Shown here: piece after piece, positions 23,726 through 24,597 of the stretch
Position numbering within the stretch: position 1 is the stretch's first letter
Layout of the letters: every line of letters begins with the position of its first letter
Origin: Octopus vulgaris
Lineage: Eukaryota
Length of the DNA: 64,000 bases
Direction of reading: 5' to 3'
NCBI GenBank assembly: GCA_951406725.2
Contig: OX597820.1
Span: forward strand, 32,798,001 to 32,862,000
The notes under the pieces: generated by a model
Seen by the model: the letters and a program-made list of their open reading frames with translations, nothing else
Databases searched by the model: none
Told to the model about the DNA's origin: nothing
Translations under genes and position numbers: made by a program

Positions 23726-23833
23726 TATACACAGATAATAAGGTAAAGCGAAAAGGTTAATAATTTAATAATTTATTAATAAGATAATGGGGCAAAGCGA
23801 AGACGTTCTATTCGGTTTATTCATAGTAATTGT

Positions 23834-23920
23834 CCGACACATGTTTCGATCGTATCAACTGCAAATTGTTGCATATTTATATGCAGGGATTTATGCATAA
23901 CTTGTACGATCTCTTCAGGG
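23834..23920 (-). ncRNA. Type I hammerhead, canonical core, long stem II, within TA-flanked element ~23735-24072
   Basis: cc-CTGAAGA-gatcgta...tacgatc-GAAAC-atgt-GTC^gg. Confidence 0.8.
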
Positions 23921-24179
23921 TGAATAAATAAGTCACTGTTCAACGAGTAATCCTCTCCATTGTTAGGTTTTAGGTAATATACCTTAAAACGTACCATCGG
24001 AAGAAACCGGCCTTGAAACTTTGCATTGAGTAACGAGTTATCTACCTGGATGTTCATATCCCTCTTCTTACTATATACGTGTGTGTATGTGTGTGTGTGT
24101 ATGTGTGTGTGCATGTGTGCATATATATATGTATATGTATGTATCTATCTTTCTTTCTCCTTCTCTCTCTCTTTCTCTC

Positions 24180-24237
<58 letters not shown>

Positions 24238-24436
24238 AGAAGGTGAATGAATTATCCTAGTATGGATAATTCGGTTAACCGATACCTGGGTAGCAAATTC
24301 ACGTCAGACAACACGGTTGAAGCTATATGCCAAGGGCAGGTACCCCGTGTTCTCGTGTGTAAATTTGTGTGTTTTTTTTTAACTATGAATAAATGAAAGA
24401 ATGGAGTCGAACGACGATTTTAACAAAATTCCTTTT

Positions 24437-24519
24437 CTCTCGACACATGTTTCGAAGGCTGCATATTCCTAATTCCGAAGGAATAAAGGGTGCATTATGC
24501 CGCCATCTCATCAGGAAAA
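24437..24519 (-). ncRNA. Type I hammerhead, canonical core, long stem II, within TA-flanked element ~24238-24560
   Basis: ttttc-CTGATGA-gatggc...gccttc-GAAAC-atgt-GTC^gagag. Confidence 0.8.
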
Positions 24520-24555
24520 ACAAGGAACTTATGTCAGCACCATAAAGAGCAAAAA

Positions 24556-24597
<42 letters not shown>

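What the first reader, a model, noticed from the sequence alone, without database searches (positions are those of the whole stretch)
23735..24560. Two adjacent co-oriented intact hammerheads sharing GAAACATGTGTCG
Two otherwise dissimilar elements lie 600 bp apart on the minus strand. Both have canonical cores, GUC sites, the same stem III sequence (ACATGT palindrome) and long helical stem II inserts. A read-through RNA could form a hetero-dimeric HHR and release a ~606-nt fragment, retrozyme-style.
Basis: partly seen in the sequence, partly recalled or inferred. Interest (0 to 1): 0.7.

Follow-up and report, generated by a model that had tools for sequence, protein, structure and literature searches.

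The report
Two Penelope retrotransposon ends with hammerheads
Both self-cutting RNA (hammerhead) motifs are really there, but each is the cut-off end of a different family of a known jumping gene (Penelope-like, likely Hydra group); they likely landed separately in one TA repeat and are predicted not to pair with each other, so the pair is likely ordinary debris.

Summary
Observation confirmed: two type I hammerhead motifs on the minus strand, with cut sites after 24442 and 23836, 606 nt apart. The interpretation mostly fails. Each motif sits in the terminal repeat (pLTR) of a different Penelope-like family, and longer copies of both lie downstream of Hydra-type RT and GIY-YIG sequence. Copy A is young (nearest copy 98%). 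Copy B is an older fold-back insertion (nearest copy 89%). B lies beside A at 1 of 80 A sites examined, this one. The shared 13-mer is a multi-family trait: 2,781 exact 14-mer sites against 12 in the control, so 0.2-0.8 such pairs are expected by chance. A hammerhead dimer must swap stem I arms. B's 5' arm pairs with A's 3' arm at 1 of the first 4 positions, and the heterodimer costs about 33 kcal/mol against 10 for two monomers. Weak independent cleavage that releases 606 nt is not excluded, but the circle would not rebuild a ribozyme, and no second copy exists. Side result: all 50 two-armed A insertions carry exactly one long end. The scan reached the same reading before on other DNA.

The parts
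24237..24560 (-). Element A: 5'-truncated 3' end (pLTR) of a young Hydra-type Penelope-like family, ending at the family's long end (end B), with (TA)n on both sides
   Evidence: 39 other near-full matches at 92-98% among 40 scored candidates. The same sequence precedes the ORF start and follows the endonuclease in full-length copies L158-L164.
24426..24530 (-). HHR-A, type I hammerhead: stem I 24530-24515/24441-24426, core 24514-24508, stem II region 24507-24454, helix III and GUC 24453-24442; predicted cut between 24442 and 24441
   Evidence: Covariation over 15 hand-picked relatives: 8 pairs changed on both sides, covariation score reached by 0 of 500 shuffles.
24072..24236 (.). (TA)n-(GA)n-(CA)n microsatellite spacer between the two insertions, about 165 nt
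   Evidence: Sequence.
23961..24071 (+). Element B, inverted arm: the last ~110 nt of the older family's long 3' end (end B), pointing towards element A
   Evidence: In other copies this piece lies downstream of the hammerhead on the opposite strand.
23730..23969 (-). Element B, main arm: 5'-truncated pLTR of the older family, ending at its short 3' end (end A) before (TA)n
   Evidence: Best other copy 89%. RT or endonuclease remnants lie upstream of the same sequence, on the same strand, in L029, L036 and L040.
23816..23928 (-). HHR-B, type I hammerhead: core 23918-23912, stem II region 23911-23848, helix III and GUC 23847-23836; stem I of 2 bp plus a bulge plus 8 bp; predicted cut between 23836 and 23835
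   Evidence: 88.6% of cells paired in 9 copies but no covariation above shuffles, 386 of 500.
23836..24441 (-). Hypothetical 606-nt double-cleavage product, not shown to exist
   Evidence: Length; no expression evidence obtained.

Best explanation
The two hammerheads are the terminal-repeat remnants of two different Penelope-like retrotransposon families (likely Hydra clade) that likely inserted at different times into the same TA-rich microsatellite, and their closeness is likely chance. Shown: family membership of each half, RT and endonuclease upstream in longer copies, fixed 3' ends followed by (TA)n, the fold-back layout of B, and a single-copy pairing. Inferred: target-primed reverse transcription from two internal start sites; B first, A later. 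Inferred: in the parent elements the ribozyme works as a homodimer between two identical pLTRs of a tandem transcript, through an 8-nt self-complementary helix III. Inferred: here each motif has lost that partner, so it is silent or cuts weakly on its own.
For: A family: pLTR, ORF start 57 nt later, RT, GIY-YIG, 3'UTR, pLTR in L158-L164; DKT, YRDD-type and GIY-YIG motifs; 36-38% identity to two intact 718-720-aa proteins with Hydra motifs. B family: endonuclease or RT upstream on the same strand in L036, L040, L029, endonuclease 41% identical to A's. Ends: 28 of 28 A-family ends at the two fixed sites run into (TA)4 or more; the 2 other ends do not. Ages: nearest copy 98% for A, 89% for B. Pairing: no second A+B site in 38 other loci or 79 other A sites. 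Chance: 0.21 co-oriented pairs within 606 nt expected for 1,409 intact motifs, 0.84 for 2,781 14-mers. Foreign-family hammerhead remnants lie within about 1.5 kb at 3 of 62 and 3 of 79 other sites (overlapping sets, 5 sites in all), co-oriented at L010, L140 and L184. Folding: homodimers beat two monomers (A 4.5 vs 11.4, B 9.9 vs 15.0 kcal/mol), while the heterodimer loses (20.7 vs 10.8 with a short linker; 32.7 vs 9.6 in context). Helix III stays self-complementary in 8-nt register with different centres: ACACGUGU, ACAUAUGU, ACAAUUGU, ACAUGUGU.
Against: No cleavage or transcription data either way. The co-oriented foreign neighbours at L010 and L140 have damaged or partial cores (L184 not inspected), so an intact-intact pair is rarer than adjacency as such. 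The 0.21 estimate means such a pair is only about 1 in 5 under uniform placement. I could not count such pairs genome-wide. Energies come from ViennaRNA with forced pairs and ignore tertiary contacts and proteins. Pfam and PDB did not recognise the RT. The Hydra linker motif CxCX5C was not found, and no tree with named Hydra proteins was built. Family B shows no covariation.
Confidence: 0.88

Rival explanations
1. Chance neighbours that still both cut: a read-through RNA folds each hammerhead as a monomer (2-bp helix III with a tetraloop), and slow independent cleavage releases a 606-nt fragment without function. This can hold together with the best explanation.
For: Monomer folds cost only 3.3 (A) and 6.3 (B) kcal/mol. 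An axolotl hammerhead with a 2-bp helix III and tetraloop cut 22% in 1 h as a monomer (PMC7229834, passages). PLE pLTRs typically hold promoters (PMC6765202, passage).
Against: A single PLE minimal hammerhead showed no detectable cleavage (PMC4209133). The anole PLE ribozyme cut only with protein added (PMC11167929). B's proximal stem I is 2 bp. No host gene was identified nearby. 0 of 98 A copies begin exactly at the cut site.
Confidence: 0.2
2. One reading: A and B form a hetero-dimeric hammerhead through the shared helix III and release a retrozyme-like 606-nt RNA.
For: Identical helix III strands can cross-pair over 8 bp. A's 5' arm can pair with B's 3' end at 3 positions and then 3 more after a mismatch. 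The orientation and spacing are right.
Against: A's own stem I (-12.7 kcal/mol) must open. The cross stems are -3.7 and -3.0. B5'/A3' pairs at 1 of the first 4 positions. Even a half-dimer costs +23 to +26 kcal/mol. The unit has not been copied. All 9 other intact-core B-type copies read ACACGUGU, so the exact match to A may be a later CpG change (inference).
Confidence: 0.03
3. A and B are one composite mobile element.
For: They lie close together in the same orientation and have related outer ends.
Against: Each has its own family-typical termini facing microsatellite. No other B copy exceeds 89% identity. B is absent from 79 other A sites.
Confidence: 0.02

Closest known systems
Hydra clade of C-terminal EN+ Penelope-like elements, including Hydra-1_Obim (Craig et al. 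2021, PMC8557442; section 11, passages and supplement hits read)
   Same: Single ORF with RT and then GIY-YIG; DKT motif; CxxC and CxH around the endonuclease end; (TA)n targets; a hammerhead near the 3' end; an ORF start resembling that of Hydra-1_Obim by eye; 5'-truncated and inverted copies with a tail at one end.
   Different: The unit is about 3.55 kb rather than under 3 kb. RWK reads RWL. An Asn-rich tract stands where the CxCX5C linker is described. The stem II region is 54-64 nt (22 nt in Hydra-1_oBim, supplement row). Helix III has 2 bp rather than 4. The tail is about 125-160 nt rather than 30-40. These are other families than Hydra-1_Obim.
Minimal and short-helix-III hammerheads of metazoan PLEs (Cervera and de la Pena 2014, PMC4209133; parts 1-2 of 4 read)
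   Same: Type I, palindromic short helix III, large helix II with G10.1-C11.1, thousands of mostly solitary copies from truncated elements, and pairs 100-700 bp apart on opposite strands.
   Different: Helix II extensions here are much longer. The pair in question is co-oriented and comes from two families.
Metazoan non-LTR retrozymes (PMC7229834, passages; bioRxiv 10.64898/2026.07.22.740005, parts 1-2 of 5)
   Same: Type I hammerheads a few hundred nt apart on one strand; derived from PLE pLTRs according to the preprint.
   Different: Retrozymes are tandem repeats of one unit, so each junction restores the ribozyme. Here the units differ, the junction would be a mismatched chimera, and the interval is single-copy.
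PAc Poseidon element of Anolis (Frangieh et al. 2024, PMC11167929; parts 1-2 of 4)
   Same: Two fixed 3' ends downstream of the hammerhead that match internal reverse-transcription starts; AT-rich targets.
   Different: There the ORF starts inside the ribozyme and the two starts are adjacent. Here they are about 150 nt apart in the 5' UTR, and two-armed insertions always use one long end.

Membership tests
Type I hammerhead ribozyme | CUGANGA and GAAA core, G10.1-C11.1, NUH cut site, three helices with stem I open | tested here: met
   both motifs; B's stem I is weak.
Type I hammerhead ribozyme | Structure supported by compensatory changes | tested here: inconclusive
   Met for A-type relatives (8 pairs changed on both sides, score 0 of 500 shuffles; pair count alone 43 of 500). 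Not met for B. Rows were hand-picked intact-core copies.
Type I hammerhead ribozyme | Self-cleavage | not testable with these tools
   Needs in vitro transcription.
EN+ Penelope-like element | RT plus C-terminal GIY-YIG in one ORF upstream of the repeat | tested here: met
   A: L041, L158-L164. B: remnants in L029, L036, L040. Recognised by motifs and homologues; Pfam silent.
EN+ Penelope-like element | pLTR repeated on both sides of the ORF, carrying the hammerhead | tested here: met
   Family A: part of the repeat ends about 57 nt before the ORF start in 6 of 7 long copies and recurs after the ORF in 6 of 7. Family B: only the 3' copy was seen.
EN+ Penelope-like element | 5' truncation, inverted arms, tail at one end | tested here: met
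   50 of 80 A sites are two-armed and divergent: 44 short+long, 6 long+other, none short+short or long+long. The window's B is short+long.
Hydra clade | DKT in place of DKG | tested here: met
   Family A; this region was not recovered for family B.
Hydra clade | RWK motif | tested here: inconclusive
   Reads RIRWL in family A at the aligned place.
Hydra clade | No CCHH; CxxC and CxH around the conserved E and N | tested here: met
   By eye: CGLC and CKH in A, CALC and CLH in B.
Hydra clade | CxCX5C linker | tested here: not met
   An Asn-rich tract in L041; not readable in the 3 decayed B copies translated; present in homologues P0001 and P0002. The families are therefore filed as Hydra-type, not as strict members.
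Hydra clade | Insertion into (TA)n | tested here: met
   28 of 28 fixed ends.
Hydra clade | Placement in the clade by RT phylogeny | not tested
   Named Hydra proteins were seen only as text in the paper's supplement.
Non-LTR retrozyme | Tandem repeat of one unit with a hammerhead in each unit | tested here: not met
   Two different families with microsatellite between them.
Non-LTR retrozyme | Released monomer restores a complete hammerhead on circularisation | tested here: not met
   Junction stem I would be B5'/A3': 1 of the first 4 positions paired.
Non-LTR retrozyme | Unit amplified in the genome | tested here: not met
Non-LTR retrozyme | Expressed as linear and circular monomer RNA | not testable with these tools
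   Only assembled contigs of runs guessed to be RNA were available.

The most novel reading that the evidence does not exclude
A retrozyme at birth. Read-through from A's pLTR is cut by both hammerheads as monomers, and the 606-nt piece is ligated. That circle carries both reverse-transcription start sites of the young A family, so the family's RT could copy it in trans across the junction and found a chimeric non-autonomous element, not yet amplified.
Probability: 0.04. Interest if true: 0.65.

Novelty: new member of a known kind. Interest (0 to 1): 0.18.

Why it matters
As a pair it matters little: two remnants among more than 1,400 intact-looking motifs of this type. If double cleavage and circularisation were real, it would be a concrete route from Penelope ends to retrozymes. 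The useful by-products concern Penelope mechanism. First, all 50 two-armed insertions of family A carry exactly one long end, which suggests that the two target strands are primed at two different internal sites about 150 nt apart, whereas the in vitro study reported no strand difference. Second, helix III keeps 8-nt self-complementarity across families, which supports homodimer action. Third, 5' ends do not pile up at the cut site, which argues against cleaved RNA being the main template.

Tried and rejected
Rfam at gathering threshold: 0 matches. Whole-window repeat search: swamped by microsatellites. Pfam on two ORF pieces and two homologues, and PDB on one homologue: nothing significant. 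A direct genome-wide count of co-oriented pairs was not obtained, so expectation and neighbour scans stand in for it. Expression: no RNA holder listed. Contigs of 4 runs guessed to be RNA hold A-family sequence from many copies but cannot show ends, strand or locus. On B, 2 of 3 guessed-RNA runs laid nothing and one laid a single 90-95% contig, while one run of unknown kind gave a contig across 23735-24005 with 11 differences. The two elements were laid separately, so a joint between the cut sites was not tested. None of this counts for or against cleavage. Idea that copies start at the cut site: rejected, 0 of 98 start exactly there and 5 within 4 nt, with ends spread widely; the sample is 98 copies from the first 100 listed of 131 exact anchors. 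My descriptor on 400 kb of evenly picked DNA gave 4 hits against 0 in reversed and 5 shuffled sets; two look like LINE coding sequence by eye. Family profiles gave 2 hits, so density is known only roughly. Host gene: none recognised among 59 frames of 130 aa or more, by eye only. Literature searches. No listing described these families or a hetero-dimeric pair; one search returned one unrelated paper, seen as a listing only. Lunse et al. on PLE dimers is not held and is known to me only as a reference title. The preprint's supplements were not seen and may list related invertebrate families.

Full report
Setting. The window is G000:C7:32798001-32862000 in a 2.8-Gb, microsatellite-rich animal genome. 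An earlier scan note on this genome calls it an octopus; I did not check that.

1. Observation. A descriptor scan finds both motifs on the minus strand. HHR-A has CTGATGA at 24514, a 54-nt stem II region and GAAACATGTGTC ending at 24442. HHR-B has CTGAAGA at 23918, a 64-nt stem II region and the same 12-mer ending at 23836. The cut sites are 606 nt apart. A has a near-perfect 16-bp stem I; B has 2 bp, a 10-nt bulge and 8 bp. A folds better than shuffles (z -2.41) and B does not (z -0.89). Rfam misses both. They are not chance motifs: 1,409 exact core-plus-helix-III matches against 0 for the reversed pattern, and 2,781 against 12 for the shared 14-mer. Those matches belong to several sequence families, so the shared 13-mer is a group trait and no special link between these two.

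2. What they are. Element A (24560-24237) has 39 other near-full matches at 92-98% among the 40 candidates scored; a 24-nt word of it occurs 131 times. Longer copies continue upstream into a GIY-YIG endonuclease and an RT with DKT. In seven long copies, the same sequence ends about 57 nt before the ORF start in six and recurs after the endonuclease in six. It is therefore the pseudo-LTR of a unit of about 3.55 kb. The RT is 36-38% identical to two unnamed 718-720-aa proteins that show the Hydra motifs (Craig 2021, section 11). Pfam and PDB gave no support. Element B is older: its best other copy is 89% identical. RT or endonuclease remnants lie upstream of its relatives on the same strand in L029, L036 and L040, and the endonuclease is 41% identical to A's. 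The window's B is a fold-back: the last ~110 nt of the family's long end, inverted (23961-24071), joined to a 5'-truncated arm that carries the hammerhead and stops at the short end near 23730. About 165 nt of microsatellite separate A and B. Both families end at two fixed sites; 28 of 28 such A ends run into (TA)n.

3. Is the pairing special? B was not found beside A in 38 other loci, nor at 79 other A sites. A search with B returns no near-identical copy, so the unit has not been amplified. Uniform placement predicts 0.21 (intact motifs) to 0.84 (14-mer) co-oriented pairs within 606 nt per genome. Shared targeting adds to this: foreign-family remnants occur within about 1.5 kb at 3 of 62 hammerhead-centred sites (duplicates removed by hand) and 3 of 79 A sites, five sites in all, three with co-oriented neighbours. 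Evenly picked DNA holds 2 remnants in 400 kb. Against my reading: the two co-oriented neighbour sets I inspected have damaged or partial cores, and I have no direct genome-wide pair count.

4. Mechanism. In a type I dimer the 3' strand of helix III runs on into the 3' strand of stem I, so cross-pairing helix III forces stem I to swap too. B's 5' arm pairs with A's 3' arm at 1 of the first 4 positions, and the cross duplexes are -3.0 and -3.7 kcal/mol against -12.7 for A's own. In the read-through RNA the heterodimer costs +32 to +33 kcal/mol, a half-dimer +23 to +26, and two monomers +9.6. Homodimers are cheaper than monomers for both A and B. These are secondary-structure estimates only. The dimer register is ACAUGUGU; related families keep an 8-nt self-complementary word with other centres (ACACGUGU, ACAUAUGU, ACAAUUGU), which fits homodimer action in tandem transcripts as proposed for PLE hammerheads (PMC4209133; PMC6765202, passages). 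All 9 other intact-core B-type copies read ACACGUGU, so B's identity to A may be a later CpG change (inference). Monomer cleavage is possible: a 2-bp helix III gave 22% in 1 h in axolotl (PMC7229834, passages). However, a single PLE motif did not cut, and the anole motif needed protein. A ligated 606-nt circle would have the mismatched B5'/A3' stem I, so it would not self-process like a retrozyme. Covariation supports A-type structure but not B's. The 5' ends of 98 A copies show no excess at the cut site.

5. Comparison and novelty. The pair works like remnants of Hydra-clade Penelope-like elements. DKT, the endonuclease cysteine pattern, (TA)n targeting, pLTRs and inverted arms are met. The CxCX5C linker was not found, RWK reads RWL, and no tree was built, so I call them Hydra-type. 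Hydra-1_Obim is a different family with a short stem II (supplement). Retrozyme membership fails on three tested features. Six literature searches listed no description of these families; the giant-squid paper only counts 235 hammerheads (passages). The scan's notes show the same reading for other loci and genomes; none lies near this place or matches this sequence. My reading was stated before that look-up.

6. Side result. Of 80 A sites, 50 are two-armed and divergent. Of these, 44 have one short and one long end, 6 have one long end and one off-site end, and none has two short or two long ends; the remaining 30 are single arms, 16 short and 14 long. A tail at one end is known qualitatively; the strictness and the ~150-nt length suggest strand-specific use of two internal priming sites (inference).

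Verdict. Real motifs of a known element type and a chance neighbourhood; hetero-dimer unlikely. Interest 0.18.

Noticed in passing
window 2183-2540: A third hammerhead family as a head-to-head fold-back: cores at 2298 (-) and 2422 (+), helix III ACGAUUGU, GUA cut site, 59-60-nt stem II region, (TA)n on the left. A related pair lies in L140.
   Followed up: partly
80 family-A sites, L165-L237 and others: All 50 two-armed insertions have exactly one long end; 44 pair it with the fixed short end about 150 nt upstream; none has two short or two long ends.
   Followed up: yes
family A, 32-35 nt upstream of the position matching window 24560: 11 of 98 copies have their 5' end in this 4-nt stretch: a preferred truncation site or an AT-rich alignment effect.
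   Followed up: no
L140:300-2200 (G000:C1:19348127-19351200): Five hammerhead remnants of three families within 1.9 kb.
   Followed up: partly
L041:1434-2714 (-): In family A a long Asn-rich tract lies between the RT thumb and the endonuclease, where Hydra elements have a CxCX5C linker, yet the family still inserts into (TA)n.
   Followed up: no
L045:1-5279: A 2.47-kb inverted duplication, 99% identical, that includes the element's flanks: a larger fold-back or an assembly artefact.
   Followed up: no
window 25749-27122 (+), 15159-15578 (-), 49591-50190 (+): Open frames that look like LINE RT and endonuclease remnants; identified by eye from recalled motifs, not tested.
   Followed up: no
window 23400-23600: A GC-richer stretch just beyond element B that looks like a SINE (recalled resemblance, not tested).
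   Followed up: no
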